A stretch of DNA of 64,000 bases from Candidatus Spongiisociaceae bacterium (GCA_965262915.1 OZ253564.1:608001-672000); one strand, 5' to 3'; numbered from the stretch's first letter, positions 8,683 through 26,430 are shown. Numbers and translations are program-made. Notes: generated from the letters alone by a model not told the origin.

Positions 8683-9947
<1,265 letters not shown>

Positions 9948-12419: not shown

Positions 12420-13156
12420 ACGCTCTATCCGCAGCCTGGCGTTCTCCCGCTCCAGTTCCCCGAGTCGTCCCCGCTCACTGCAAGTGAGCCCTTCCGCTCA
12501 GCCCTGTTGATCTCATCCTGACCTACCCAGTTGCCCAGGGTGTGCGCCGAGCTGCGCCGCCGTGGTCGGCGGGTGAACCACAAACGTGTCGAGCGGCTGA
12601 CGAAGCGCCACCACCTCCCGGGTTTCGTGCCCCACAAGCTCGCAGTGCGGCACCTTCTGAGGCACGGACCTACCAGCGCCTCCGATCCGGGGCTGCTTGA
12701 GCGCTTGGAGGTCAGCCGGGCGCAAGCCACCCAGGTGCTCCGCCGCCTCGAAGACGCCGAGTTCGTGTACGCATTCCAGGACAGAGGGGAGTCGGCCGTC
12801 CCCGAAAGCTGTACGCAACTCGTCTCAGCCACGAGGAGACTGGAGTTCCCCCCATGGGCTGGACACTTGGTTTATGCGGCCGTGTGATGGTAGTAGTTGT
12901 CCTCCCATTCGTTCGGTGGCTGTTGCCCGATCGTGGAGTGAAGCCGGCGGGGGTTGTACCAGGCTTCGATCCAGTACCGGATCGATAGGCGGGCCTGGCG
13001 GCGGCTTCGGTAGTCGGCTCGGTTGACGAGTTCCTTCTTGAGGGTGCCGAGAAACGACTCGGCGGCGGCGTTGTCCCAGCACACCCCGATCCGTCCCACC
13101 GACTGTGCGATGCCATATGCCCGGCACAGCTGGGCGGTGGCCCTCAAGGTGAATTG
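12420..13156. mobile_element. Scrambled IS3-family fragments (orfA tail, orfB HTH piece, integrase C-terminus, right IR at ~12841-12866)
   Basis: VPRVCAELRRRGRRVNHKRVERL (+); CWDNAAAESFLGTLKKE...WYNPRRLHSTIG (-); IR TGGAGTTCCCCCCATGGGCTGGACA. Confidence 0.8.
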
Positions 13157-13431
13157 CCCGGGTTCAAGGGGTCGTTGCAACACTGCCTTGTTTGAGGGAG
13201 TGTAGGTTGGAGTTCCCCCCGGTGGCCGGACGAGACGCGTGATTTCACGCCGTGGCTGGCTGAGAACCTGGACCTGTTGGGGGAGGAACTCGGGCCGGGT
13301 TTGGAGGCTGTCGGGAGTCGGATCCAAACCGTTTTGTGCCTTTCGTGAAGGGAATCTGGGGAGTTACGACCCTCTATTCGGGCCCTGGGGTGGTACCAGG
13401 CTACCGGTTGCCTTCACAGAAGGGGCATTCC
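13157..13431. repeat. Right arm of the 275-bp inverted repeat
   Basis: Reverse complement of 8683-8957. Confidence 0.93.
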
Positions 13432-13985: not shown

Positions 13986-14298
13986 ATAGACAAAGAGATT
14001 TTATGTCTAAATGGCCTTGTCTTTTCGCCAGCAGTTTGCTGAAATAGACGGATGTACTTGGGTCGATACCCTGATGGATCTGCAGTCTTGATGTCGCCCA
14101 ACGGTTTCGGTCTGCGGCTGTTGGCTGTCGCCCGGATTCGTCTTTGGGTGAAGAGGTATAACTGGACAATTGCTGGGGTTTGTCGACGTTGGCTGCGCCT
14201 GAGGCGGCGCGCCCGCGTCGGGACCTGCGGCGCGGACTCTGCGCCCGATGGTCTTGAGGACACGCCGACGTTGCCAGAGCCGACGCGGGGGCCGGCCG

Positions 14299-14892
14299 GT
14301 GGACATCGTTGCTGATCTCGCCGTGATCGGCGCCGCCTCGGTGCTGTTGCTCAGCGGATCCTCCAAGATCGCGCGGCCTCGCCCCATCACGACCACCCTG
14401 GTGATGCTTTGGAACACCGCCACCAGACAGGCCCGGTCAGCTGCCTCGCCTCGGCTCGGGCTGATGCTGGGAGTCGGCGAGATGGGCCTCGCCGCCGTCG
14501 TTGCGACGGTGCGGTCCTGGCCGGCGGGCCTAGTCCTTGTGCTCTTCGCAGCGGGATTGGCGGCCGCGGGGGTGATGGGAGTGCTGAGCGGCGGCGAGGT
14601 ACCGTGCGCCTGCTTCGGCAAGGGCGACCGGACCCTGGGCTACGGGCACATCCTGCAGCTTCCGTTGTGGATCTTCGCAGCGTGGGCGGTGGCCCAGGGC
14701 GGAACCCTGTTCAGCGCGGGCACACGTCTCGAGCAGACGCTGGCAATGCTCGCAGTGTGCACCGCCCTCTCGACAGCGTTGCAGGTTGCGAGAGCATGGC
14801 GAGCGGTCTACCCGATCGCGCGGCAGCGCAGGAAGGGCGCGGCTGAGGCTGCGGTCCTGCCGCCGGCCGGTGCGGGGGTCTCCTCGTGGTAG
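14299..14892 (+). CDS. MauE/DoxX-family redox-associated membrane protein
   Basis: LLLSGSSKI, GVGEMGLA, conserved VPCACFG motif, 4-5 hydrophobic segments; GTG 14299 taken as start. Confidence 0.85.
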   Translation: MDIVADLAVIGAASVLLLSGSSKIARPRPITTTLVMLWNTATRQARSAASPRLGLMLGVGEMGLAAVVATVRSWPAGLVLVLFAAGLAAAGVMGVLSGGEVPCACFGKGDRTLGYGHILQLPLWIFAAWAVAQGGTLFSAGTRLEQTLAMLAVCTALSTALQVARAWRAVYPIARQRRKGAAEAAVLPPAGAGVSSW

Positions 14893-15506
14893 TCGCCGCC
14901 CTGATCATCTCGATTGCGGCCCTGCTCCTGAGCGGGTTCGTCGCGCTGGCTGTAATGGAGGTGGTCGCCGAGAGGCCAGCCGGTCCGAGACAGCCTGCCG
15001 AGGACTCCATCGAGGAGTTCGAGCTGTCACCGGCAGTGGCCGGGACCTCGGCCAGCTCGCACGGGCTGCCCGATCGGATCGACGGCGCCTCCGCACACCT
15101 TGTGCTCGTGATCTCGCCTCGGTGCTCGATGTGCAAGAAGCTGGCCCTCTCCTTCGACGGGAAGATTCCAGCCCATCTCACGGTCGTGGTGGCCGCGACG
15201 GACGCCGTCCGCATGAGGAAATGGGCCGCCGAGAGCGGGCTGTCGCTGCGGAGGACGGTGTTCGACGACGACATGACCATCGTGAACGGGCTCGAGGTGT
15301 CCTCTAGCCCGACAGTCGTGGGGTTCGTCAACGGCACGGTCGCGTTCGTCGCAGGAGTTGGCGGCCGCCGAGCTCTGGATGACCTGCTGGAGCAACGCAT
15401 TGCGATTCTCGAGCAGGTTCCGAGCGTCGACGCCCCCGAGGAGACAGATGCCGCCGTGTCGGATACCGGCGACGGCTCGCGGGGGAGCCGGACCCGTGGT
15501 CCTTGA
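14886..15506 (+). CDS. MauD-like membrane-anchored thioredoxin-fold protein
   Basis: N-terminal TM helix, LVISPRCSMCKKL (CxxC), EVSSSPTVVGF (cis-Pro loop); start overlaps the MauE-like stop. Confidence 0.75.
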   Translation: MVVAALIISIAALLLSGFVALAVMEVVAERPAGPRQPAEDSIEEFELSPAVAGTSASSHGLPDRIDGASAHLVLVISPRCSMCKKLALSFDGKIPAHLTVVVAATDAVRMRKWAAESGLSLRRTVFDDDMTIVNGLEVSSSPTVVGFVNGTVAFVAGVGGRRALDDLLEQRIAILEQVPSVDAPEETDAAVSDTGDGSRGSRTRGP

Positions 15507-16194
15507 GTTCGTGTCGGCTGTCGGTCTGTTCCTGGGCGGATATCTGCAGAGACACAGTCCTTGAGGCGTCTCCTTCGTGGGCCAGTTCGGCCCCACGTTT
15601 GCGACGAGCAGAGGCATTCGACGGGTGTCTCGCAGCGGTGTCTACGTGCTGGGCGCCCTGCTGTCCTCGGGGATGTTCATTCTCGCGGTCGACATGACAG
15701 CGGGGCACTTCTCTCGAGATGTCCTAGGCGGCGACCGGTCCCGGGCCGCGGCGCTCGTCCTGGTGAGCGTGCTGATCCTCATCGACGCGATCCGGCTGTG
15801 GGGCGGACGCTCCACCTCCTTCGGACCGAACCGGCAGACCCCCTACGCCTGGCGAGCGAGAGGCTGGCCGGGCGTTCTCGGCTGGGGCCTCGACACCGGG
15901 GTTCCGCTCACGACGATTAGGACATCGTCGCTTCCCGTGCTGGGCGTGGTGCTGGTGGCCACCGGACACGGCGGCCCGCTGCACGGCCTGGCCTACGGCT
16001 CGGGCCTGGCGGTCGGCCTTCTCGGCGGAGTGGTTGCGATGTCGCCGCGCGGCGACATCCGAAGCGTGATGGCCGAACTGCTGCGGCGCCGCCGCGCTCT
16101 GAGGCCGGTCATGGTGACGGTGGCTCCGTCCGCGCTGATGATCGGCGTGCTCGTGACCGCCGCGCTGGCGGCGCCCGGCACGGCGGCACCATGA
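15496..16194 (+). CDS. MauF/DsbD-like membrane protein, putative selenoprotein (in-frame TGA at 15562-15564)
   Basis: GGAG + GTG 15496 gives VLEFVSAVGLFLGGYLQRHSP-TGA-GVSF, continuing in frame into ORF 15577-16194 (RQTPYAW, GWGLDTGVPLTT); hairpin follows the TGA. Confidence 0.72.
15562..15597 (+). promoter_or_regulatory. Candidate bacterial SECIS element
   Basis: TGA + 11 nt + stem CGTGGGCC / GGC(C)CCACG with loop AGTTC; the loop starts 19 nt after the UGA, with G second. Confidence 0.62.
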
Positions 16195-19100
16195 GGCGGG
16201 CTGGGATCCGCGCGGGGCCCGCGGCAGGGGTTGCCGGGCGAGTCCGCCGGGTGTTGTCCGGGCTGGTGCTTGCCGCGGTGGTCGCAGCCGGGATCGGACC
16301 CGGGGGGTCTTGGGCTCAAGTGGGCGACGGCGACGATGAGGGTCGTCATGACGGCTTCGATGATGTGGTCTCGGGTGTGCACGCGTCGGCGATTGATGCT
16401 CTGGCCCAGTTGGGGGTCTTCGAGGGCACCGAGTGCGGCGAGGGGCTGTTCTGTCCCGACGAGCCCATCCGGCGCTGGGTGATGGCGGTGTGGCTGGTGC
16501 GCGTCCTCGAGACGCCGTTGCCCGAGGCCGGCGCGTCGCGCTTCTCTGACGTGGACCCCCAGCAGTGGTGGTCGCGCCATGTGGAGGCCCTGGCCGATCT
16601 GGAGATCACCGCAGGCTGCTCGCGATCGCCGGCCCGGTACTGCCCCGACGAGGTGGTCAGCCGGGCCCAGATGGCGTCGTTCCTGGCCCGGGCGTTCCAC
16701 TTGGAGCCCTCCGAGGAGGGTGAGCGCTTCAGCGACGTGTCGGGCGGCGTGCATGCGGCGAACATCGACGCGCTGGCCGCGAGCGGTATCACCGCAGGCT
16801 GCGCTACCGACCCGGCGCGCTATTGCCCGACCAGGGCCACCACCCGCGCCCAGATGGCATCGTTCCTCAAACGGGCCCGCACCATGTTCATAGGCCCCTG
16901 CCCGACCGAGGCCACAGACGACACCGGCACCACCACACCAAGCACCGGGTCGCCCCCAAGCACCGGGTCGCCCCCAAGCACCGGGTCGCCCCCAAGCACC
17001 GGGTCGCCCCCAAGCACCGGGTCGCCCCCAAGCACCGGGTCGCCCCCAAGCACCGGGTCGCCCCCAAGCACCGGGTCGCCCCCAAGCACCAGGCCTGGTG
17101 TGGTGGTGCCGGGTGCGCCACGCGGTGTGGTGGTGGCGCCGGATGATGGGGAATTGTTGGTGTCCTGGTCGGCGCCGAGCGAGCTGGTGGGCGTGTCGTC
17201 GGTGACCTATGTGGTGGAGTGGCGCTTGGACACCCAGCCCTTTGGCGGGGGGCGCCGGTTGTTGGGTGTGTCGGAGGAGTCCGCGACGATCTCGGGGTTG
17301 GTGAACGGCGCGATGTACGCCGTGCGTGTGTCGGCGGTCTTGTCGGGAAGCCGGGGGCCATGGTCCGAGCCGGTGCCGGGCGCGCCCGGGCGGGTGCTGG
17401 GCGCGCCCCGTGAACTCGTGACCGAGAGGGGCGATCGGGAGTTGGGGTTGTCTTGGGAGCCGCCGGGTGATCCGGGAGGCTTGGAGCCGGGAGACTTCCT
17501 CGCGCCTGAGTACTATGTCGTGCAGTGGGCCGTGGAGGGCGAGTCCTACAGCCTGGACCGCCTGCTCGAGGTGACGGAGACCTCCGCGACGATCACAGGG
17601 CTGGACAACGGCACCCTCTACAGAGTGCGGGTCGCCGCGGTGCGGGTCGTCGCGGTGCCCGTTGCGAGCCCGGAGCTGTGGTCGGAGGCCACTGGCGTGC
17701 CTGCGGTCCCGCCGGACGCGCCCAGCGGCCTGATGGCCGCGGCCGGCGATCAACAGCTGATGCTGTCGTGGGTGTCGGGCGAGTCGGGAGGCTTGCCGGT
17801 AACCGAGCAGCGGCTGCAGTGGCGCTCGAACTCGCAGTTCTTCAGCGAGGACCGGCAACTCGTCATCGGCGACGACACCTCCGCGACGATCACAGGGCTG
17901 GACAACGGCACCCGCTATTGGGTGCGGGTGGCCGCGGTGAGCGGTGCCGGGGTCTCGGACTGGTCCCCTCATGCGTCGGGCCGCCCCGCGACGCGGCCGG
18001 GGGCGCCCGGCGGTCTGGAGGCGACCCGGGACAACCAGTCCTTGGTGCTGTCCTGGGACCGGCCGGCGGACAGCGGCGGGGCGGTGTCGTTGAGCTATGT
18101 GGTGCAGTGGCGCTCGGACGCCCAGTCCTTCAGTGCGGCACGCGAACTGGAGGCGGCGGACACGTTCGCGACGGTGACCTCGCTGGTGAACGGCACGGTC
18201 CACTGGGTGCGTGTCGCGGCCGTCAACGACGACGCGGACGCGGGCCGGGGGGCATGGTCCGAGCCGGTGTCGCGCACCCCGGCCACGAGGCCCGGGGCGC
18301 CACGGCGTGTGGCGGCGACTCGCGGCGACGGGTCTTTGGCTGTGACCTGGGCTGCGCCGGCCGAGTCGGGCGGCGCAGCGGTGGAGGGCTATGTGGTGCA
18401 GTGGCGCTCGGACGCCCAGTCCTTCAGCACGGCCCGCCAGCGGACCACCACTTCGACGTCGGCGACCGTGCCTGGGCTGGTGAACGGCACCACCTACACG
18501 GTGCGGGTCGCCGCGGTCAACAACGTCGGCGCCGGGGCGTGGTCCGAGCCGGTGTCGCGCACCCCGGCCACGAGGCCCGGGGCGCCACGGCGTGTGGCGG
18601 CGACTCGCGGCGACGGGTCTTTGGCTGTGACCTGGGCTGCGCCGGCCGAGTCGGGCGGCGCAGCGGTGGAGGGCTATGTGGTGCAGTGGCATGCCAGCGG
18701 CCAGTCCTTCAGCACGGCCCGCCAGCGGACCACCACTTCGATGTCGGCGACCGTGCCTGGGCTGGTGAACGGCACCGCCTACTGGGTGCGGGTCGCCGCG
18801 GTCAACAACGTCGGCGCCGGGGCGTGGTCCGAGCCGGTGTCGCGCACCCCGGCGACGAGGCCGGGGGCGCCGGTGATCGAAGCGGTCGACGGGGGCAGCG
18901 GCCGGCTCGTGGTTCGCTGGGCCGCGCCCGCGAACGGCGGGTTTCCGGTGAGGAGCTACCAGCTTCAGTGGAAAACTGACAGCCAGACCTTCAGCACGGC
19001 CCGCCAGCGGACCACCACTTCGACGTCGGCGACCGTGCCTGGGCTGGTGAACGGCACCGCCTACTGGGTGCGGGTCGCCGCGGTCAACAACGTCGGCGCG

Positions 19101-22100
19101 GGGGCGTGGTCCGAGCCGGTGTCGGGCATCCCGGCGTCGGCGCCGGGGGCGCCACGCGACCTGGTCGTGACACCCGGCAACGGCCAGCTCGGACTGTCCT
19201 GGCAGCCGCCCGGCGACACCGGCGACGTCGCGGTCGAGTACGTGGTGCAGTGGCGCTCGGGATCCGAGCAATACAGCTCGGCCCGCAGCCAGACCACCGG
19301 CGAGGACTACGCCACGGTCACGGGGCTGGCCAACGGCACCGCCTACTGGGTGCAGGTCACCGCGAACAGCTCCGCGGGCGCGGGGGGCTCCACGGAGGCC
19401 ACCAACGTCGTTCCACGCACCACCCCGTCGGCGCCGCTGCGCCTGGAGGCCACCGTCGGCGACGGCTCACTTGCCCTGCAATGGCAGCCGCCGTCCAGCG
19501 ACGGCGGCGACAGCGTCAGCGGCTACATCGTCCAGTGGAGGGCCGACGGCGAGGACTACGCCACGACCCGCCAACTCGATGCGGCGGGCACGTCCGCGGC
19601 GATAACCGGGCTGGCCAACGGCACCCCCCACACCGTTCGGGTCGCCGCGGTCAACGCGGCGGGCGCCGGGGCATGGTCTACTGAGGCCACGAAGACCCCC
19701 GCAGGCGTGCCGGACGCGCCCCGCGAGGTCACCGCCGCGAGCGGCGACCGGGCCCTGGACGTGTCCTGGGAGCCACCCCCGAACAACGGCTCAGAGATCA
19801 AGCACTATGTGGTCCAATGGAAGGCGGGCGGCGACTACAGCACGGCCCGCCAGCGGACCACCACTTCGACGTCGGCGACCGTGCCTGGGCTGGTGAACGG
19901 CACCGCCTACTGGGTGCGGGTCGCCGCGGTCAACAACGTCGGCGCCGGGGCGTGGTCCGAGCCGGTGTCGCGCACCCCGGCGACGAGGCCGGGGGCGCCG
20001 GTGATCGAAGCGGTCGACGGGGGCAGCGGCCGGCTCGTGGTTCGCTGGGCCGCGCCCGCGAACGGCGGGTCTCCGGTGAGGAGCTACCAGCTTCAGTGGA
20101 AAACTGACAGCCAGACCTTCAGCACGGCCCGCCAGCGGACCACCACTTCGACGTCGGCGACCGTGCCTGGGCTGGTGAACGGCACCGCCTACTGGGTGCG
20201 GGTCGCCGCGGTCAACAACGTCGGCGCGGGGGCGTGGTCCGAGCCGGTGTCGGGCATCCCGGCGTCGGCGCCGGGGGCGCCACGCGACCTGGTCGTGACA
20301 CCCGGCAACGGCCAGCTCGGACTGTCCTGGCAGCCGCCCGGCGACACCGGCGACGTCGCGGTCGAGTACGTGGTGCAGTGGCGCTCGGGATCCGAGCAAT
20401 ACAGCTCGGCCCGCAGCCAGACCACCGGCGAGGACTACGCCACGGTCACGGGGCTGGCCAACGGCACCGCCTACTGGGTGCAGGTCACCGCGAACAGCTC
20501 CGCGGGCGCGGGGGGCTCCACGGAGGCCACCAACGTCGTTCCACGCACCACCCCGTCGGCGCCGCTGCGCCTGGAGGCCACCGTCGGCGACGGCTCACTT
20601 GCCCTGCAATGGCAGCCGCCGTCCAGCGACGGCGGCGACAGCGTCAGCGGCTACATCGTCCAGTGGAGGGCCGACGGCGAGGACTACGCCACGACCCGCC
20701 AACTCGATGCGGCGGGCACGTCCGCGGCGATAACCGGGCTGGCCAACGGCACCCCCCACACCGTTCGGGTCGCCGCGGTCAACGCGGCGGGCGCCGGGGC
20801 ATGGTCTACTGAGGCCACGAAGACCCCCGCAGGCGTGCCGGACGCGCCCCGCGAGGTCACCGCCGCGAGCGGCGACCGGGCCCTGGACGTGTCCTGGGAG
20901 CCACCCCCGAACAACGGCTCAGAGATCAAGCACTATGTGGTCCAATGGAAGGCGGGCGGCGACTACAGCACGGCCCGCCAGCTGGAGGCGGCGGGCAACA
21001 CGGCGACGGTGACCGCTCTGGTGAACGGCACCGCCTACTGGGTGCGGGTCGCCGCGGTCAACAACGTCGGCGCCGGGCCGTGGTCCACCGAGGCCACGAA
21101 GACCGCCGCCACCGTGCCGAGCGCGCCCCGCAACCTGACAGTCGAACGCCGCAACTCGGCCCTGGCCGCGACGTGGACCGCGCCCGCCTCAACCGGCGGC
21201 CTGGCGATCGAGGAGTACCAGATTCAGTGGACGACCGACCCCAGCGACTACGGACCGGACAAGGAGGGCACCGTGACAGGCACGACGGCGACGCTCCCCT
21301 TCCTGGTCAACGGCACCGAATACATGGTGCGGGTCGCGGCGGTCAACGGCATCGGCGCCGGGGCATGGTCCACCCAGGAGTCAGGCACTCCCTCCCCTCC
21401 CCCGACGGTGCCGGGGCGGCCCGAGATCGACGCGGTGGACGCTGCGGACCGCCGGCTGGTGGTGCGCTGGAGCCCGCCCGCGAACGACGGCGGCGACGAC
21501 ATCACCGGCTACATAGTGCGCTGGCGCACCCAACTCGGCTCCTACAACGCCGCCAACACGCACCCGGGGATCGGCGCGTCGGTATCGAGCGACACGATCG
21601 ACGAGCTGGACAAGAACACCCGGTACTGGGTACAGGTTGCCGCGGTCAACGGCATCGGCGCCGGGCGGTGGTCCGACGCTGTGTCGGCCACCATCCCGAT
21701 GACCGCGCCGGGCGCGCCTCTCGGCCTGGCGGTCGCTGGAGGCGACGCCGAGCTCCAGCTGTCATGGAGGCAGCCCCACGACACCGGAGGCGCCCAGCCC
21801 CTCACCTACGTCGTGCAATGGCGCTCCGGCGACCAGCAATACGACACGACACGCCAACAGACGACCGTCTCGACGTCAGCGACGATCACGGGGCTCGACA
21901 ACGGCACCCGATACTGGGTGAAGGTCACCGCGACCAACGCCGAGGGGTCCACACCCGGCGTCGAACGCGACGGCACCCCGCTGACCGGGCCCGGCCCACC
22001 CACGATGGTCGAGTTCACAAGCGACCCCATGGCGCCGGGCCGGCTGGTGCTGTCGTGGGCCGCTCCCGACGACAACGGCGGAACCGCCCTCACCGGATAC

Positions 22101-24704
22101 ATGGTGCGCTGGAGAGTCCACGGCGAGCGCGACCACGAAGAGGATCGTGTGGGCGCCGCGAGCCTCAGCCACCGGATCGACGGGCTGGTCAGCGGCACCA
22201 GGTACTGGGCACAGGTCCGCGCCTTCAACCGGGTCGGCAACGGGCCGTGGTCAGACCTCCTGTCCACGGTGCCGCTCGCCGTGCCGGGCGCGCCCCGAAC
22301 CGTCGCAGCAGAAGCCCGCGACGCGGGTCTCGGAGTGACCTGGCAGGCTCCTGCCAGCGACGGCGGCGACCCGATCACCGAATACAAGATCCAATGGAAA
22401 ACCACCTCCGGCGCGTTCGGCGCGGCCGCCGCCGTGGACGCCGCCACACACCTCCATGAGATCACCGCGCTCACCAACAACACCCGCTACGTCGTGCAGG
22501 TCGTGGCGGTAAACTCCCAAGGCGACGGCAGCGCCGCCCAGATCCACGCCACGCCGCTGCCGCCCACTGTCCCCGGACCGCCCATCATCGCCGCCGTGGT
22601 GCCTCGCGAGGGGGGAGTCACGGTCCAGTGGCTGCCGCCTCCCGACGACGGCAGAGCGCCCGTGAGCTCCTACCGGCTGAGCTGGCCCGGCGGCCACGCC
22701 GAGATCACCGACCCGACCGACCTCAGCCATGACATCGTCGGACTGGACTTCGCCCTCGACTCCGTGATCAGGATCTCCGCGGTCAACTCCCAGGGCGAGG
22801 GAACCCCCGCCGCGGTCAGGGCCCGCTCCAATCAGGTCCCGGGCCCGCCGCAACGCGTGCTCATCGCTGAGGACGACGGCAGCCTCGTCGTGCGGTGGAA
22901 ACCGCCCGGCGTCGTGTCGGCGTTCGTCGCCTCATACAGCGGGTTCGTGGTCACCGAGTACCTGGTGCAGTGGAAGACAAGCGGCCAGGAATACAGCACC
23001 GACCGCCAGGCCACGGTCACACCGGACTCCATCCCGGACAACTCCTACGGGGTCTACACGATCACGGGCCTCAACAACGGCTCGGACTACTCGGTGCGCG
23101 TCATCGCGGTCAACGAGGGCCGCCGGGGGCCGCCCGGGGAGGTGTCGGGTCGGCCGAGGCCGGCAGTGGAGGGCGCACCGCCTCGTGTCGTCGCCTACAA
23201 CTACGGCGAACGCACGGGTGAACTCTGGGTGGATTGGTGGCCGGCCATACGAGAACACGACGGGGTGCAGGCCTCCATCTACGAGCTGCGTTGGGGGCCT
23301 GCCGGCCAGGCGAGCAGTCCCTCCGGATACCCGAGGATCCCCGTGGGGCCCCGCGTCATCGACGTCGGCTCTGACGCAGTGGGCACCGTGCTCCGCGTGC
23401 GGGTGAGAGCAGTCTATGGTGGCACGTTCGGGCCGTGGGCCGAGACGCTGGTCGCGGTGGCGGCGCCTCCGACCATCCCGCAGCGACTCACTGCGACCCC
23501 CGGCGACGGCAGTGCATCGTTGCAGTGGGATCCGCCCGAGTCCGACAGGGGGTCGCCGATCTCTGCGTATGTGGTGATCGTGAACGAGGTCGACGACATC
23601 GAAGACCAGGCGTCCGTCGTCGTGACCGGCGAGAGCTACGAGATGACCGGGCTTGAGAACGGCCGGACATACACGCTTCATGTAGCGGCGCTCAACAACG
23701 TGGGCATCGGATATCGCAATGAAGTGATGGTGACGCCCAACGGCGAGATCGACGGGCCGAGCGTGCCCGGCGCGCCGGAGGACGTGGTGGTGGTGCCCGG
23801 CGACGGTTCGCTGGCGGTGTCGTGGGCGGCGCCGGCCGATCACGGCGGGGCCGCCGCCAGCGCGTACCAGGTGAGCTGGGAGGCGGCCGGGCAGCCCGGC
23901 ACAGCCCAGCAGGCCGATGTGGGCGCGGCGTTGAGCCATGTGATCACTGGCCTGGTCAACGGCACCGACTATGCGGTGGAGGTGACCGCAGCCAACTCCG
24001 CCGGGACGGGGCAGGCAGCGGCGGTGACAGCTGCGCCCGCGGCGGCGGGGGCGCAGCCGGGCGCGCCGGGCGGGATCGTGGTGGTGCCCGGCGACGGCAT
24101 GCTGTTGGTGTCATGGCATGCGGCGACCGACAGCACCGGGGCCGCCGCCAGCAGGTACGAGGTGAGCTGGGAGGCGGCCGGGCAGCCCGGCACAGCCCAG
24201 CAGGCCGATGTGGGCGCGGCGTTGAGCCATGTGATCACTGGCCTGGTCAACGGCACCGACTATGTGGTGGAGGTGACCGCAGCCAACTCCGCCGGCAAGG
24301 GACCGGCCATAGTGACGCGGGCGGTGCCCACCGGGGTGCCGAGCGCGCCCCGCGGAGTGGTCGCCGCGCGCAGCACGGTCGTGGCCGGCACGGCCAGGAT
24401 CCTGCTGAACTGGCTTCCGCCCGACGACAACGGCGGCACCAAGATCACCGCCTACCGGGTGTCATGGCGCGCCGACGGCGAGAGCTACGACGACTCGCAG
24501 TGCTCGCACCGCCGAGCCGATACCACCGCCACGGGCCACCCCATCGGCGACTTGGACGCCGACACCACTTACCACGTTCGGGTGGCCGCCATCAACGCCG
24601 CGGGGCCCGGCCCCGCAACCGAGATAACGATCCCGCCCGGGAACACTGCGGCAGCTGACAGGAGGCACACAGAATGGGCATCGCCAGACACTCGGAACAG
24701 ATGA
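16191..24704 (+). CDS. Giant secreted surface protein: signal peptide, 3 SLH domains, S/T/P linker, roughly 25 fibronectin type III domains (2837 aa)
   Basis: FDDVVSGVHASAIDALAQLGV, TRAQMASFL; repeated PGAP...L.V.W..P...Y.VQW...GL.NGT.Y.VRVAAVN..G.G.WS; ATGA overlaps at both ends. Confidence 0.95.
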   Translation: MRRAGIRAGPAAGVAGRVRRVLSGLVLAAVVAAGIGPGGSWAQVGDGDDEGRHDGFDDVVSGVHASAIDALAQLGVFEGTECGEGLFCPDEPIRRWVMAVWLVRVLETPLPEAGASRFSDVDPQQWWSRHVEALADLEITAGCSRSPARYCPDEVVSRAQMASFLARAFHLEPSEEGERFSDVSGGVHAANIDALAASGITAGCATDPARYCPTRATTRAQMASFLKRARTMFIGPCPTEATDDTGTTTPSTGSPPSTGSPPSTGSPPSTGSPPSTGSPPSTGSPPSTGSPPSTGSPPSTRPGVVVPGAPRGVVVAPDDGELLVSWSAPSELVGVSSVTYVVEWRLDTQPFGGGRRLLGVSEESATISGLVNGAMYAVRVSAVLSGSRGPWSEPVPGAPGRVLGAPRELVTERGDRELGLSWEPPGDPGGLEPGDFLAPEYYVVQWAVEGESYSLDRLLEVTETSATITGLDNGTLYRVRVAAVRVVAVPVASPELWSEATGVPAVPPDAPSGLMAAAGDQQLMLSWVSGESGGLPVTEQRLQWRSNSQFFSEDRQLVIGDDTSATITGLDNGTRYWVRVAAVSGAGVSDWSPHASGRPATRPGAPGGLEATRDNQSLVLSWDRPADSGGAVSLSYVVQWRSDAQSFSAARELEAADTFATVTSLVNGTVHWVRVAAVNDDADAGRGAWSEPVSRTPATRPGAPRRVAATRGDGSLAVTWAAPAESGGAAVEGYVVQWRSDAQSFSTARQRTTTSTSATVPGLVNGTTYTVRVAAVNNVGAGAWSEPVSRTPATRPGAPRRVAATRGDGSLAVTWAAPAESGGAAVEGYVVQWHASGQSFSTARQRTTTSMSATVPGLVNGTAYWVRVAAVNNVGAGAWSEPVSRTPATRPGAPVIEAVDGGSGRLVVRWAAPANGGFPVRSYQLQWKTDSQTFSTARQRTTTSTSATVPGLVNGTAYWVRVAAVNNVGAGAWSEPVSGIPASAPGAPRDLVVTPGNGQLGLSWQPPGDTGDVAVEYVVQWRSGSEQYSSARSQTTGEDYATVTGLANGTAYWVQVTANSSAGAGGSTEATNVVPRTTPSAPLRLEATVGDGSLALQWQPPSSDGGDSVSGYIVQWRADGEDYATTRQLDAAGTSAAITGLANGTPHTVRVAAVNAAGAGAWSTEATKTPAGVPDAPREVTAASGDRALDVSWEPPPNNGSEIKHYVVQWKAGGDYSTARQRTTTSTSATVPGLVNGTAYWVRVAAVNNVGAGAWSEPVSRTPATRPGAPVIEAVDGGSGRLVVRWAAPANGGSPVRSYQLQWKTDSQTFSTARQRTTTSTSATVPGLVNGTAYWVRVAAVNNVGAGAWSEPVSGIPASAPGAPRDLVVTPGNGQLGLSWQPPGDTGDVAVEYVVQWRSGSEQYSSARSQTTGEDYATVTGLANGTAYWVQVTANSSAGAGGSTEATNVVPRTTPSAPLRLEATVGDGSLALQWQPPSSDGGDSVSGYIVQWRADGEDYATTRQLDAAGTSAAITGLANGTPHTVRVAAVNAAGAGAWSTEATKTPAGVPDAPREVTAASGDRALDVSWEPPPNNGSEIKHYVVQWKAGGDYSTARQLEAAGNTATVTALVNGTAYWVRVAAVNNVGAGPWSTEATKTAATVPSAPRNLTVERRNSALAATWTAPASTGGLAIEEYQIQWTTDPSDYGPDKEGTVTGTTATLPFLVNGTEYMVRVAAVNGIGAGAWSTQESGTPSPPPTVPGRPEIDAVDAADRRLVVRWSPPANDGGDDITGYIVRWRTQLGSYNAANTHPGIGASVSSDTIDELDKNTRYWVQVAAVNGIGAGRWSDAVSATIPMTAPGAPLGLAVAGGDAELQLSWRQPHDTGGAQPLTYVVQWRSGDQQYDTTRQQTTVSTSATITGLDNGTRYWVKVTATNAEGSTPGVERDGTPLTGPGPPTMVEFTSDPMAPGRLVLSWAAPDDNGGTALTGYMVRWRVHGERDHEEDRVGAASLSHRIDGLVSGTRYWAQVRAFNRVGNGPWSDLLSTVPLAVPGAPRTVAAEARDAGLGVTWQAPASDGGDPITEYKIQWKTTSGAFGAAAAVDAATHLHEITALTNNTRYVVQVVAVNSQGDGSAAQIHATPLPPTVPGPPIIAAVVPREGGVTVQWLPPPDDGRAPVSSYRLSWPGGHAEITDPTDLSHDIVGLDFALDSVIRISAVNSQGEGTPAAVRARSNQVPGPPQRVLIAEDDGSLVVRWKPPGVVSAFVASYSGFVVTEYLVQWKTSGQEYSTDRQATVTPDSIPDNSYGVYTITGLNNGSDYSVRVIAVNEGRRGPPGEVSGRPRPAVEGAPPRVVAYNYGERTGELWVDWWPAIREHDGVQASIYELRWGPAGQASSPSGYPRIPVGPRVIDVGSDAVGTVLRVRVRAVYGGTFGPWAETLVAVAAPPTIPQRLTATPGDGSASLQWDPPESDRGSPISAYVVIVNEVDDIEDQASVVVTGESYEMTGLENGRTYTLHVAALNNVGIGYRNEVMVTPNGEIDGPSVPGAPEDVVVVPGDGSLAVSWAAPADHGGAAASAYQVSWEAAGQPGTAQQADVGAALSHVITGLVNGTDYAVEVTAANSAGTGQAAAVTAAPAAAGAQPGAPGGIVVVPGDGMLLVSWHAATDSTGAAASRYEVSWEAAGQPGTAQQADVGAALSHVITGLVNGTDYVVEVTAANSAGKGPAIVTRAVPTGVPSAPRGVVAARSTVVAGTARILLNWLPPDDNGGTKITAYRVSWRADGESYDDSQCSHRRADTTATGHPIGDLDADTTYHVRVAAINAAGPGPATEITIPPGNTAAADRRHTEWASPDTRNR
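16941..17084 (+). repeat. 18-bp tandem repeat x8 encoding (STGSPP)8 linker
   Basis: AGCACCGGGTCGCCCCCA x8. Confidence 0.96.
18711..20981 (+). repeat. Near-identical 1128-bp tandem duplication (4 FN3 domains)
   Basis: Shadow ORFs recur identically at offset 1128 (19061/20189, 19106/20234, 19556/20684); only a few substitutions seen. Confidence 0.93.
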
Positions 24705-25102
24705 CAGGACGCGCCAAGCACACAGCCGACAGGACGCGCCGAGCATGGCCGACAGGACGCGCCAAGCACACAGCCGACCGGCCCCACCGACCGGACCGTC
24801 GAGCGTTCCTGCGTTGCGCCAGCGGGGCCGCGCTGTCGATTCTGGCGGTGGGAGCGCGAGCCGCACTGCATCCCCGGCCCGCGTCGGCAGGCCCCGCGGC
24901 GTCGTGTTGCGGTCTCGCGCGAGACGCCAATGCGTGGTGCCCGTACTTCTGCGGAGAGATCGGCGGAGGATTCAGCTGTTGGGCATGCAACAACGGGGCG
25001 TGCCTGTGCTGTGAGTGCATCCCCGGCGGGCTGGCCAGCTGCTTCTATTTCTTTGCGAGCTGCTCCTACAGCACTGGGTGCTGCGAGAGGGCGGCCGATT
25101 AG
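24701..25102 (+). CDS. Tat-signal, cysteine-rich small secreted protein (alternative start 24674)
   Basis: DRRAFLR twin-arginine motif, hydrophobic stretch, ASA cleavage site; predicted 70-aa mature part with 14 Cys and 2 Trp. Confidence 0.85.
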   Translation: MTGRAKHTADRTRRAWPTGRAKHTADRPHRPDRRAFLRCASGAALSILAVGARAALHPRPASAGPAASCCGLARDANAWCPYFCGEIGGGFSCWACNNGACLCCECIPGGLASCFYFFASCSYSTGCCERAAD

Positions 25103-25188
25103 GCACCGAGCGACACCGGAGGCGACTGTGGACTCAACAGACCGACCAACATCAGGCGCCCGGGCGCGCGGGCTCCGCGGGGGCGACC

Positions 25189-25599
25189 ATGACTGACTCG
25201 AACAAGACCACCCGTCCAAGGCCCGGGAGCCTCGGCTCCCAAGAGTTCGTGGACTTCCTGGCGCAAGTGCGCCGCGACCCGCGCCGGACACCGGCGCCCT
25301 CGCCCATCAACGCCGCCGCCGTCGAGTTGGGCACCTACGAGTCCGACGCTGGCGAGGGCCATGTATGGGTGCGCATAGACAGCACCGGCGAGACCGTGCG
25401 AGCCGCGCTCGACGGCTTCCTGCCCGAGTATCGCCTCGAGCGCGGTGACGAGCTGGGAGCAACAGTTGTGGACGGCGCCTGGCGGACGATCCCCACCGTG
25501 AAGTACACAATCAGGCACTCCGACCGGATCGATTTCTGGACCAAGAACCGCCGGACCGGGGGCTTTCGCCAGCTCGCCACGAGCAGCTACGAGCAGTAG
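25189..25599 (+). CDS. Hypothetical protein (136 aa), last gene of the Mau-like cluster
   Basis: ATG 25189, GC3-rich codons, globular-looking beta-rich composition; no family recognised. Confidence 0.65.
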   Translation: MTDSNKTTRPRPGSLGSQEFVDFLAQVRRDPRRTPAPSPINAAAVELGTYESDAGEGHVWVRIDSTGETVRAALDGFLPEYRLERGDELGATVVDGAWRTIPTVKYTIRHSDRIDFWTKNRRTGGFRQLATSSYEQ

Positions 25600-25750
25600 C
25601 GACCAGAAGCGTTTACACCACCACAACCGCCCGAGATCAAGCAAGCTGACCGGGCCTGGTTCCGGGTGGCGAAGCTGGTCCGGTCTAGGAGTTCGGTCTC
25701 GAGGGTGGCGAAGAAGGACTCGGCGACCGCGTTGTCGTAGGCGTCGCCTC
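25600..25750 (-). mobile_element. IS3-family integrase fragment
   Basis: DAYDNAVAESFFATLETELLDRTSF. Confidence 0.8.
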
Positions 25751-26430
25751 GGCGGCCAGGTCTGTGTCCCGCCCGTTGAGGATCCGTAGACGGGCTAGGA
25801 GCTCGTCGGTGATAGTGGTCCACATGAGCCGATCCGCGTTGCGCCACGCGTAGTCGGCCAGCACCCGGGCATCTTTGGGGTCGGTCTTGGCCGCTCCTGC
25901 GTAGAGCTCCGCGGCTCGGCGCATCGCCAGGCCGGTGACATAAGCCACCGGCATCTGACACTCGGCGGCCACCCCCAAGGCCAGCACAGCCGCAGACGAG
26001 GTCGAGTCAACCACCAGCGGCGGGCTGCCATGACCTGCTGCGTCGTCGATCAACCGCCGGATAGCCCCCTCGTCGTTGGGAACCGGACGGGCGAACAACG
26101 GCTCGCCTCGAGCCGACACCGCACAGGCATAATGCTTGCCTTTGGCGACATCAACACCGACGAACACCTCAGGGGCGGGCTGTGGGCAATCACCCACTCG
26201 GCAGGTCCCTTCCGGTCGGGAATACGTATGCCGATAACTCAGGACACCAACGCCTCAACCACATCTGCGAACCAGCCCCTCACTTCGGTGCATGTGATGG
26301 CGATCAGAGGTCGCAGGCACCCAACCACGGCGGGTGGAATCACACCCTAGGCCATCTCGGTGACAGGGGAATTAAGCCCAGCCCGCCGCGGCGAGTAACC
26401 GGCCCCGATGCTCACACACCAGAGCTACCC
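25750..26430 (-). mobile_element. IS110-family 5' fragment (DEDD domain plus upstream non-coding region)
   Basis: VFVGVDVAKGKHYA, AKTDPKDARVLAD; truncated by the IS3 piece. Confidence 0.85.

What the first reader, a model, noticed from the sequence alone, without database searches (positions are those of the whole stretch)
14299..25599. Mau-like (MauE/MauD/MauF) maturation cluster with a giant SLH-FN3 protein and a Tat-exported 14-Cys peptide instead of methylamine dehydrogenase
Seen: six co-oriented genes. The first five overlap at their ends (GTGGTAG 14886-14892, 15496/15506, ATGA at 16191 and 24701), which indicates one operon. Known: in methylamine utilisation, MauD (thioredoxin fold), MauE and MauF mature the Tat-exported, disulfide-rich MADH small subunit MauA, which works with the beta-propeller MauB and the di-heme MauG. 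Seen: no MauB or MauG occurs in this window. A 2837-aa SLH-anchored FN3 array sits inside the operon, and the Tat substrate is a 70-aa Cys-dense peptide. Inference: this is a repurposed thiol/selenol-disulfide machine that folds a secreted disulfide-rich peptide, possibly displayed on or delivered by the FN3 stalk. It could be a host-interaction or RiPP-like system.
Basis: partly seen in the sequence, partly recalled or inferred. Interest (0 to 1): 0.9.

Follow-up and report, generated by a model that had tools for sequence, protein, structure and literature searches.

The report
Mau-like folding cassette with selenocysteine MauF
An uncultured, probably sponge-associated actinobacterium carries relatives of the three helper genes of methylamine dehydrogenase, one of them an unannotated selenocysteine membrane protein, next to a tiny exported 14-cysteine protein and a giant wall-anchored fibronectin-repeat protein, and it has no methylamine dehydrogenase.

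Summary
Six co-oriented genes lie at 14248-25599, four junctions overlap, and the 5.05-Mb genome has no MauA, MauB or MauG.

Gene 1 is MauE-family, with the CxC-FG motif. Gene 2 is a membrane-anchored CxxC protein, only weakly MauD-like.

Gene 3 is a true MauF homolog: a profile of 31 relatives hits Paracoccus MauF at E 2.5e-30. It is open only if the TGA at 15562 is read as selenocysteine. That TGA is kept in 26 of 26 Sec-form loci. Six actinobacterial relatives and MauF itself have Cys there (WSPCG). The genome has tRNA-Sec, SelA, SelB and SelD.

The Tat-signal peptide (14 invariant Cys, 2 invariant Trp) and a 136-aa beta-barrel protein are orphan families.

In 12 related Acidimicrobiia loci, the FN3 giant, the peptide and the barrel protein each sit beside the MauF gene in 11. 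At least six gene orders occur.

Best reading: a dedicated, selenium-using oxidative-folding cassette for a disulfide-knotted surface or secreted mini-protein. Any role of the FN3 stalk is inferred, and co-transcription is untested.

Earlier notes of this scan describe the same class, and this same cassette, on other DNA. Four selenoproteome papers do not mention Mau or methylamine in their main text.

The parts
14248..14892 (+). MauE-family membrane protein. The longest ORF starts at ATG 14248; GTG 14299 fits the orthologs' starts better. It has the CxC-FG motif 'PCACFG'.
   Evidence: Pfam PF07291 at 30.1 bits against a cut-off of 27, and 33.2 bits in the genome search. The motif is read. CxC is the active site according to Gonzalez et al. 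2026. Orthologs were found in 10 of 12 loci.
14886..15506 (+). Membrane-anchored CxxC protein with an invariant 'SPxCxxC' and a later 'SSSP'. It is thioredoxin-like and MauD/TlpA-type by architecture.
   Evidence: Alignment A6. hhalign against Paracoccus MauD gave prob 30%, E 5.4e-4, with the CxxC motifs aligned. Atlas look-alikes are Thioredoxin_2, Redoxin and TlpA clusters. Pfam Thioredoxin reached only E 0.16. Present in 12 of 12 loci.
15496..16194 (+). MauF homolog, 232 aa, with selenocysteine at residue 23 (motif 'QRHSP-U-GVSF'). Databases annotate it from 15577, truncated at the TGA.
   Evidence: The profile of 31 full-length relatives hits Paracoccus MauF at E 2.5e-30 (106 bits). All 38 database homologs start just after the TGA.
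15562..15564 (+). In-frame TGA read as the selenocysteine codon.
   Evidence: TGA is at this aligned position in 14 of 14 close loci and in 12 of 18 phylum loci; the other 6 have TGC or TGT. No difference is listed here in contigs of 4 runs from 4 studies. The genome has tRNA-Sec, SelA, SelB and SelD.
15577..15596 (+). Hairpin GUGGGCC-AGUUC-GGCCCCAC, starting 12 nt after the UGA: a candidate bacterial SECIS.
   Evidence: z only -1.25 to -1.29. In a second Sec clade a different hairpin sits at the same distance, with 95% of cells paired and one compensatory pair.
16191..24704 (+). 2837-aa surface protein: signal peptide, three Cys-paired SLH modules, a PSTGSP linker and about 25 FN3 domains.
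   Evidence: Pfam fn3 with 25 stretches and SLH at 35.8 bits. Cys at 82/88, 143/151, 204/212, 237 and 2771. An FN3 array was found in 11 of 12 related loci.
24701..25102 (+). Precursor of a Tat-signal mini-protein (alternative start ATG 24674). The mature part is about 70 aa, with 14 invariant Cys, 2 invariant Trp, and invariant P81 and E105.
   Evidence: It has no Pfam, NCBIfam or PDB sequence relative. TatC is present in the genome.
25189..25599 (+). 136-aa orphan protein with no signal peptide. The model is an all-beta, OB-like barrel (residues 45-133).
   Evidence: AF2 pLDDT 81, above 90 in the core. Only weak PDB fold matches, E >= 0.007. The family has 48 clusters, unnamed and without Pfam. 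Present beside the peptide gene in 11 of 12 loci.
12872..13327 (-). Integrase-core (rve_3) fragment on the upstream flank.
   Evidence: Pfam rve_3, E 2.2e-15.
25685..26197 (-). IS110-family transposase ORF on the downstream flank.
   Evidence: Pfam DEDD_Tnp_IS110, E 1e-34.

Best explanation
This is a dedicated extracytoplasmic oxidative-folding cassette. It descends from the same stock as the mauF-mauE-mauD part of methylamine dehydrogenase clusters.

Its client is not the dehydrogenase small subunit. The client is an orphan Tat-signal mini-protein of about 70 residues with 14 cysteines, probably forming seven disulfides.

Proposed steps (inferred):
- The precursor is exported by Tat.
- The MauE-type membrane protein (CxC site) draws oxidising power from the quinone pool.
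- The membrane-anchored CxxC thioredoxin-like protein passes disulfides to the peptide.
- The MauF-type membrane protein carries one redox residue next to a proline in its first membrane segment, here selenocysteine. It acts as a third, fast thiol/selenol exchange arm that reshuffles wrong pairings or recycles the partners.

In this clade of Acidimicrobiia MAGs, several of which carry sponge-derived names, the cassette is genetically tied to a giant SLH-anchored FN3 stalk and a small cytoplasmic beta-barrel protein. The folded knot is therefore most likely a cell-surface or secreted factor made together with the stalk.

Shown here: the homologies, the Sec/Cys pair, the Sec machinery, the gene linkage, the lack of MADH genes and a separate DsbB. 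Inferred: every biochemical step, the direction of electron flow, the role of MauF, and any contact between the peptide and the stalk.
For: MauE: Pfam hit over the cut-off, and CxC-FG motif. MauE homologs replace DsbB in E. coli through a CxC site (Gonzalez et al. 2026 preprint; abstract and passages).

MauF: a profile of 31 full-length relatives hits Paracoccus MauF at E 2.5e-30. That was the only non-self hit among 33,031 ORFs. MauF has 'TWSPCG' where this gene has 'HSP-TGA-G'.

Selenocysteine:
- TGA is kept in 26 of 26 Sec-form loci, with conserved flanks on both sides.
- Cys sits at that position in 6 of 18 phylum-wide relatives.
- The genome has tRNA-Sec, SelA (434 bits), SelB (333) and SelD (390).
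- Hairpins lie 11-15 nt after the UGA, with one compensatory pair.
- Contigs of 4 other studies list no difference at the TGA.

MauF-MauE fusion proteins exist: P0138 and P0171.

Linkage: in 12 loci of related species, Trx is present in 12, the peptide with the barrel protein in 11, an FN3 array in 11 and MauE in 10. At least six gene orders occur. In a 401-genome sample of the order, all 5 genomes with the peptide also have the MauF relative.

The system is dedicated, not housekeeping. The genome has a DsbB elsewhere, and the cassette is patchy (7 of 401 genomes).

No MauA, MauB or MauG was found in the genome. TatC is present.

Across Actinomycetota, the MauF relatives again sit directly beside unrelated Cys-rich secreted ORFs. 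None of the 9 scanned matches a Pfam family at E <= 0.001.
Against: - Gene 2 reaches no thioredoxin or MauD model threshold.
- MauE was not found within 10 kb in 2 of 12 loci (L033, L035).
- The SECIS hairpin of the window is not more stable than shuffles (z about -1.3), and Cys-form loci fold as well on average.
- The peptide model is poor (pLDDT 57), so no disulfide map or fold is known.
- Tat normally carries folded or cofactor-bearing proteins, which fits a metal-binding reading as well.
- No expression data exist.
- The role of MauF is unknown even in the classical system.
- Two more distant loci (L064, L015) carry the peptide and Sec-MauF without the FN3 or barrel genes. The stalk is therefore an addition in this clade, not a requirement of the machine.
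Confidence: 0.62

Rival explanations
1. The peptide is a ribosomal, disulfide-locked antimicrobial or signalling peptide (RiPP-like bacteriocin). The Mau-like proteins are its tailoring enzymes and the 136-aa protein is an immunity or chaperone factor. The FN3 giant is only a neighbour in a surface-protein island.
For: Kloosterman et al. 2020 listed three Streptomyces candidate RiPP families with mauE, one also with mauD, and precursors with at least 8 Cys (passages). The peptide is small, has a leader and is hyper-conserved in its Cys. The barrel protein gene is adjacent to the peptide gene in most loci. The cluster is flanked by transposase genes, and its G+C is 0.71 against 0.64 for the genome.
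Against: The leader is an ordinary Tat signal with an AxA site, not a RiPP recognition leader. I found no protease, transporter or other tailoring enzyme in the cluster. The FN3 gene stays in 11 of 12 loci through at least six rearrangements, which is hard to explain for a bystander.
Confidence: 0.13
2. The main client of the redox trio is the SLH-FN3 giant itself, through its three Cys pairs in the SLH modules and two lone Cys. The 14-Cys protein is an accessory redox or structural subunit of that surface layer.
For: The Cys pattern of P0005 is 82/88, 143/151, 204/212, 237 and 2771. A lone Cys after the SLH region is kept in the 9 orthologs read ('GPCP'-like in most). A lone Cys in a late FN3 ('C-S-x-R'-like) is kept in about 4. 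Neighbouring genes also encode SLH proteins.
Against: More distant cassettes (L064, L015) have the peptide and Sec-MauF but no SLH-FN3 gene. Across Actinomycetota the constant neighbour of MauF relatives is a Cys-rich protein, not an SLH protein.
Confidence: 0.1
3. The 14-Cys protein is a metal- or iron-sulfur-binding protein that is loaded in the cytoplasm and exported folded by Tat. The barrel protein is its loading chaperone. The Mau-like proteins keep its thiols reduced outside the cell; they do not oxidise them.
For: Tat export suits cofactor proteins. The peptide has CC and CxCC-E-C motifs. The barrel protein has no signal peptide. The Gonzalez preprint cites a report that MauE may act as a reductase (passage).
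Against: No ferredoxin, HiPIP or metallothionein model matched. MauA, the classical client of the same helpers, is also a Tat substrate and has six disulfides (introduction passage of the Gonzalez preprint, for the disulfides; the Tat status is recalled). MauE complements DsbB, an oxidase.
Confidence: 0.08
4. The peptide is the cofactor-bearing small subunit of an unknown quinoprotein. A Trp- or Cys-Trp-derived quinone would form from the two invariant Trp next to Cys, by analogy with TTQ in MauA and CTQ in QhpC.
For: W79 and W94 are invariant and each touches a Cys ('WCP', 'CW'). The same helper trio and the same Tat route serve MauA.
Against: The genome has no MauG and no MauB-like partner. 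hhalign of the peptide against MauA aligns only the leader (prob 0.2%). At about 70 aa the peptide is roughly half the size of the mature MauA domain.
Confidence: 0.04

Closest known systems
mauF-mauB-mauE-mauD-mauA segment of the methylamine dehydrogenase cluster (Paracoccus denitrificans PD1222 plasmid 1, NC_008688.1 216737-220681)
   Same: It has a MauF-type membrane protein with the SP(C/U)G motif, a MauE-type protein with CxC, and a TM-anchored CxxC protein in the MauD position. It also has a small Cys-rich client with a twin-arginine leader. The genes are adjacent and co-oriented.
   Different: There is no MauB, MauG, amicyanin or MauJ/M/N. The client is unrelated in sequence to MauA. 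MauF uses selenocysteine. Added genes encode an SLH-FN3 giant and an OB-like protein. The host is an actinobacterium, not a methylotrophic proteobacterium.
MauE as a generalist DsbB-like disulfide-forming protein (Gonzalez et al. 2026, bioRxiv 10.64898/2026.03.05.709764; abstract and passages read)
   Same: MauE occurs without MADH, has a CxC-FG active-site motif, and is proposed to work through a thioredoxin-fold partner.
   Different: In the text I searched, that work does not mention MauF or selenocysteine (0 occurrences each). It treats MauE as a general pathway. Here the genome also has a DsbB, and the MauE gene is locked to one client cassette.
Streptomyces candidate RiPP families with mauE and mauD homologs and precursors of at least 8 Cys (Kloosterman et al. 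2020, PMC7794033; passages read)
   Same: Mau helper genes sit beside a short Cys-rich precursor in actinobacteria that lack the rest of the mau cluster.
   Different: No MauF or selenoprotein is mentioned in the passages I saw. No Tat-signal 14-Cys family, FN3 giant or barrel protein is mentioned there. I did not compare sequences with those clusters.
CcdA / DsbD-beta (DsbD_2, PF13386) membrane thiol-disulfide transporters
   Same: Polytopic membrane protein with a redox residue directly after a proline inside the first membrane segment. Atlas look-alikes of the window protein include DsbD_2 clusters (16% of members at score 0.95, 85% at 0.82).
   Different: It has only one redox residue (the Sec) and no cysteine at all in the 232-aa protein, whereas those transporters have two membrane cysteines (recalled). 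Pfam DsbD_2 matched 1 of 35 family members at E 9e-4.

Membership tests
MauE (Pfam PF07291) | Score at or above the Pfam gathering cut-off | tested here: met
   30.1 bits against 27; 33.2 bits in the genome search. The margin is small; Paracoccus MauE scores 101.6.
MauE (Pfam PF07291) | CxC active-site motif followed by F-G | tested here: met
   'PCACFG' in P0001 and C-A-C-F-G in 8 of 8 orthologs printed. The motif is defined in Gonzalez et al. 2026.
MauF (methylamine utilization protein F) | Full-length sequence homology to a MauF from a genuine mau cluster | tested here: met
   An HMM of 31 relatives matched Paracoccus MauF at E 2.5e-30, 106 bits, over profile positions 5-213 of 228. Without the N-terminal segment the match is only E 0.063.
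MauF (methylamine utilization protein F) | Conserved Cys in the 'WSPCG' motif of the first membrane segment | tested here: met
   The position is occupied by TGA (Sec) in the window and by Cys in MauF and 6 actinobacterial relatives.
MauD (TIGR02661, accession recalled) / thioredoxin fold | Match to a MauD or thioredoxin-family model at its cut-off | tested here: not met
   No NCBIfam or Pfam hit reached a cut-off. The best were Thioredoxin at E 0.16 and pdi_dom at E 0.058. Paracoccus MauD itself hits AhpC-TSA and Thioredoxin_2.
MauD (TIGR02661, accession recalled) / thioredoxin fold | N-terminal membrane anchor followed by a CxxC motif aligned with that of MauD | tested here: inconclusive
   hhalign of A6 against MauD gave prob 30%, E 5.4e-4, 129 columns, with 'SPxCxxC' on 'APSCPVC'. 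Atlas look-alikes are Trx, TlpA and Redoxin clusters.
Methylamine dehydrogenase light chain MauA (PF02975) | Match to the light-chain model | tested here: not met
   No hit for P0003 and none in the genome. hhalign against MauA gave prob 0.2%. The positive control scored 180 bits.
Methylamine dehydrogenase system | Heavy chain MauB and di-heme MauG present in the genome | tested here: not met
   PF06433 and PF03150 gave no match in the single-contig genome, which is 96% complete. PF06433 had no positive control.
Bacterial selenoprotein | In-frame UGA conserved among orthologs, with conserved sequence on both sides | tested here: met
   14 of 14 close loci and 12 further loci.
Bacterial selenoprotein | Homologs with Cys at the aligned position | tested here: met
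   6 of 18 phylum loci and Paracoccus MauF.
Bacterial selenoprotein | Sec machinery in the same genome | tested here: met
   tRNA-Sec with anticodon tca; SelB, SelA and SelD over their cut-offs.
Bacterial selenoprotein | SECIS stem-loop just downstream of the UGA | tested here: inconclusive
   A hairpin starts 12 nt after the UGA, but z is only about -1.3. In a second clade 95% of cells pair and one pair is compensatory, GC 5 to CG 4. Coding constraint confounds this test.
Bacterial selenoprotein | Selenium found in the protein | not testable with these tools
   Needs 75Se labelling or mass spectrometry.
Tat substrate | Twin-arginine motif, hydrophobic stretch and AxA site, with a Tat translocase in the genome | tested here: met
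   R-R-x-F-x-R is invariant in 16 of 16 sequences. TatC scores 205 bits. Export itself was not tested.
CcdA / DsbD_2 (PF13386) | Two membrane-embedded redox cysteines (recalled) and a match to the model | tested here: not met
   There is one Sec and no Cys. No Pfam hit for the window protein. 1 of 35 relatives matched at E 9e-4.
RiPP biosynthetic cluster | A precursor with a recognition leader plus a class-defining tailoring enzyme, protease or exporter | tested here: inconclusive
   Among the six genes no known tailoring, protease or transporter family matched. The leader is a Tat signal. No RiPP-specific tool was available.

The most novel reading that the evidence does not exclude
MauF is an unrecognised family of membrane selenoproteins. 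Its single mid-membrane Sec or Cys is the catalytic residue of a third arm of Mau-type oxidative folding. In sponge-associated Acidimicrobiia this selenium-dependent machine builds a seven-disulfide knot. The knot is mounted on, or released from, a wall-anchored stalk of about 25 FN3 domains and serves as a host-interaction device.
Probability: 0.2. Interest if true: 0.85.

Novelty: new variant of a known kind. Interest (0 to 1): 0.66.

Why it matters
MauF has been a required but unexplained gene of methylamine dehydrogenase clusters (recalled). Selenocysteine replacing its one conserved cysteine marks that residue as a redox catalyst, which gives a direct handle on MauF's function.

The finding also points to a selenoprotein family that gene callers cut in two. 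All 38 database homologs start after the TGA. The words Mau and methylamine occur in none of the four selenoproteome papers whose main text I searched.

Together with the 2026 evidence that MauE is a DsbB-like oxidase, it suggests that MauF, MauE and MauD form a portable three-part folding machine. Actinobacteria would attach it to many different cysteine-packed exported proteins.

In this case the machine is tied to a giant fibronectin-repeat surface protein, a kind of eukaryote-like domain protein that comparative studies of sponge symbionts track (PMC11706023, passages). The cassette is therefore a concrete candidate for a symbiosis surface structure.

Tried and rejected
- Complex prediction of the barrel protein with the peptide precursor gave no verdict (score 0.26, mark 0.32).
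- The AF2 model of the peptide was too poor for a fold search (pLDDT 57).
- The fold search of the barrel protein gave only weak OB-fold matches (E >= 0.007).
- PDB sequence searches of genes 2, 5 and 6 gave nothing significant.
- The first scan of genome contigs with the peptide alignment found no relative.
- tblastn of the MauE protein against plasmids found nothing.
- No RNA holder was listed among public runs, so co-transcription could not be examined.
- The promoter and terminator scan was uninformative: 1 and 3 sites, no more than in shuffles.
Full-length MauF was therefore neither folded nor searched outside my scripts.
- hhalign of the N-terminally truncated family against MauF missed the homology (E 0.063). 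It appeared only once the segment before the TGA was included.
- I rejected the idea that the 'TGA inside' flags on peptide matches in G391 and G285 meant a Sec in the peptide. Those are the ordinary stop codons.
- I rejected DsbD/CcdA membership because there is only one redox residue.
- The Tertiapin hit to a neighbouring Cys-rich ORF (E 0.0033, below cut-off) was dismissed as a composition effect.


Full report
**Observation.** The window has six co-oriented ORFs on the + strand between 14248 and 25599.
- GTGGTAG at 14886-14892;
- GTG at 15496, ahead of the stop at 15504-15506;
- ATGA at 16191 and at 24701;
- an 86-nt gap before the last gene.

Gene 4 encodes 2837 aa with an SLH region and 25 fn3 stretches. 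Gene 5 has an RRAFLR leader and 14 Cys in its last 70 or so residues. The cluster has 71% G+C against 64% for the genome. It is flanked by an integrase fragment and an IS110 transposase ORF.

**Gene 1.** It matches Pfam MauE just over the cut-off (30.1 against 27 bits; 33.2 bits). It carries 'PCACFG'. A 2026 preprint showed that MauE homologs replace DsbB in E. coli and that the CxC motif, usually followed by F-G, is required (abstract and passages).

**Gene 2.** It has an N-terminal membrane helix, an invariant 'SPxCxxC' and a later 'SSSP'. No thioredoxin or MauD model reaches significance. A profile comparison with Paracoccus MauD aligns anchor and CxxC at E 5.4e-4, probability 30%. Atlas look-alikes are thioredoxin, TlpA and redoxin clusters. 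I call it MauD-like by architecture only.

**Gene 3, the main result.** By table 11 the ORF starts at 15577, but conservation runs on upstream across a TGA at 15562.
- In the window and 13 related loci the frame reads '...LQR(Y/H)SP-TGA-G(I/V/L)SF(V/L)GQF...'.
- All 38 database homologs are annotated from the residue after the TGA.
- A sample of 401 genomes of the phylum held relatives in 21. That tally includes three unpublished genomes, which I did not analyse.
- Of the 18 loci read, 12 have 'SP-TGA-G' and 6 have 'WSP-C-G'.

I fetched the classical mau cluster of Paracoccus denitrificans. Its MauF reads 'LLSTWSPCGYSS'. An HMM of 31 full-length actinobacterial members hits that MauF at E 2.5e-30 over nearly the whole profile. 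It was the only non-self hit among 33,031 ORFs.

The genome has tRNA-Sec, SelA, SelB and SelD. A hairpin starts 12 nt after the UGA, but it is not more stable than shuffles. In a second Sec clade another hairpin at the same distance is 95% paired, with one compensatory pair. Contigs of four runs from four other studies cover the site and list no difference there.

I conclude, at about 0.9, that gene 3 encodes a MauF homolog with selenocysteine in place of MauF's conserved cysteine. The protein has no cysteine at all, so it is not a two-cysteine CcdA/DsbD-type carrier. Two relatives are natural MauF-MauE fusions.

**Genes 5 and 6.** The peptide family is rare: 3 clusters in the large protein collection. 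Across 16 sequences, all 14 Cys, two Trp, one Pro, one Glu and the twin-arginine motif are invariant. It has no relative in Pfam, NCBIfam or PDB sequences, and nothing but the leader aligns with MauA. Its model is poor.

Gene 6 models confidently as an all-beta, OB-like barrel without a signal peptide, with only weak fold matches. Its family has 48 unnamed clusters.

**Linkage.** A scan of one genome per species found 12 loci. All are Acidimicrobiia MAGs, several with sponge-derived names: Ca. Poriferisodalis, Ca. Spongiisociaceae, Ca. Aldehydirespirator. The passages I read in one paper place those families within its discussion of sponge-associated clades.

By tblastn:

| Component | Loci of 12 |
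|---|---|
| CxxC gene | 12 |
| Peptide with barrel gene | 11 |
| FN3 array | 11 |
| MauE | 10 |
| MauE, CxxC, MauF, peptide, barrel and FN3 together | 9 |

MauE was not found within 10 kb in L033 and L035, and only a fragment remains in L041. At least six gene orders occur, and two loci have duplicated parts.

In a 401-genome sample of the order, the peptide occurs in 5 genomes and the MauF relative in 7, including all 5. Two more distant loci (L064, L015) hold the peptide and Sec-MauF without FN3 or barrel genes. Elsewhere in the phylum, MauF relatives sit directly beside other, unrelated Cys-rich exported ORFs; none of the 9 scanned matches a Pfam family at E <= 0.001.

**What is absent or elsewhere.** No MauA, MauB or MauG was found in the genome. 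The MauA search worked on the Paracoccus plasmid; MauB had no positive control. A DsbB homolog lies elsewhere, no VKOR was found, and TatC is present. The cassette is therefore an accessory, dedicated system.

**Mechanism.** My preferred model has these steps:
1. Tat exports the precursor.
2. MauE oxidises the CxxC protein.
3. The CxxC protein oxidises the peptide.
4. Sec-MauF adds a fast exchange step needed to reach one of many possible seven-disulfide pairings.

These steps are inferred from homology and context. The FN3 giant has three Cys pairs in its SLH modules plus lone Cys at 237 and 2771, and similar Cys occur in orthologs. It may be a second client or a docking partner. That is speculation.

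**Comparison and novelty.** The arrangement is the mauF/E/D plus Tat-client core of the MADH cluster with a new client and new partners. Mau helpers beside Cys-rich precursors were noted in Streptomyces, and MauE is now seen as a generalist.

Neither text, as far as I searched it, mentions MauF or selenocysteine. The words Mau and methylamine occur in none of four selenoproteome papers (main text only); PUG, SPU and transmembrane were also absent from the 2026 review. Two further searches found nothing relevant. Supplementary tables were closed and could list the family under another name.

Earlier notes of this scan report the same class, and the same cassette, on other genomes. I read them after my own tests, and they agree.

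I rate this a new variant of a known kind, of solid interest. The function of the peptide and of the stalk remains open.

Noticed in passing
window 26825-30679 (-) and 31444-33225 (-): Two more SLH-bearing surface proteins lie just downstream. One is 1284 aa with 12 RCC1 repeats; the other is 593 aa with a CarboxypepD_reg domain. The region looks like an island of wall-anchored, eukaryote-like repeat proteins.
   Followed up: no
window 8919-9575 (-), 12872-13327 (-), 25685-26197 (-): Transposase or integrase ORFs (rve, rve_3 fragment, IS110) bracket the cluster. Its G+C is 0.71 against 0.64 for the genome. This hints at horizontal acquisition.
   Followed up: partly
window 16938-17090 and 18094-20388: A perfect 18-bp tandem repeat of 8.5 copies encodes the PSTGSP linker. 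A 282-bp-period FN3 array contains near-identical longer duplications; for example, the ORF pair 19106-19684 and 20234-20812 has equal length. FN3 counts differ between orthologs, with gene lengths of about 800 to 2837 aa.
   Followed up: partly
window 16191-24704 (P0005 residues 237 and 2771); orthologs in L030-L040: Besides three Cys pairs in the SLH modules, a lone Cys follows the SLH region in the 9 orthologs read ('GPCP'-like in most). A lone Cys in a late FN3 domain ('C-S-x-R'-like) recurs in about 4 of them.
   Followed up: partly
P0138 (381 aa) and P0171 (367 aa): These are natural fusions of a MauF-like N-terminal domain with a MauE domain (Pfam MauE up to E 1.1e-16). They argue that the two membrane proteins work together.
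   Followed up: partly
G000:C1:4560939-4561865 (own genome, outside the window): The SelD gene itself contains an in-frame TGA. The organism probably makes a selenocysteine-containing selenophosphate synthetase.
   Followed up: no
L041 9052-10492; G169:C12:29825-30328: These look like decaying copies of the cassette. L041 keeps only a MauE fragment, a CxxC gene split into three tblastn pieces and the MauF gene. G169 has a MauF match with an extra TGA inside and no peptide hit.
   Followed up: no
L030 and L035: Partial duplications of the cassette: two peptide genes and two barrel genes in each locus. FN3 hits reach the locus start, upstream of the one SLH-FN3 gene hit by the SLH query, so there may be a second FN3 gene. 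L030 also has two CxxC genes.
   Followed up: no
L068 7148-7732, L079 7843-8373, L081 9095-9625 and similar: A recurrent, unannotated secreted protein family sits directly upstream of MauF relatives in other Actinomycetota. Its C-terminal motif is '...RCCxGR(V/I)R(K/R/T/Q)(L/I/V)xDCCSxSxxRINGDxx(L/V)xGYCxxG(R/K)(R/K)VFC(V/I)xYx(D/Q)(T/L/K)N-or-KxxC'. It has no Pfam match.
   Followed up: partly
window 15565-15655: In metagenome contigs of four studies, summed depth rises 3- to 100-fold in this bin, and several contigs end or start at 15567-15588. The stretch just after the Sec codon appears to be shared by several co-occurring relatives.
   Followed up: no
P0010 and window 24701-24830: The peptide precursors carry short internal duplications ahead of the signal peptide. 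'GRAKHTADR' occurs twice in the window, and 'GRRAFLRYAGGAAL' twice in P0010.
   Followed up: no
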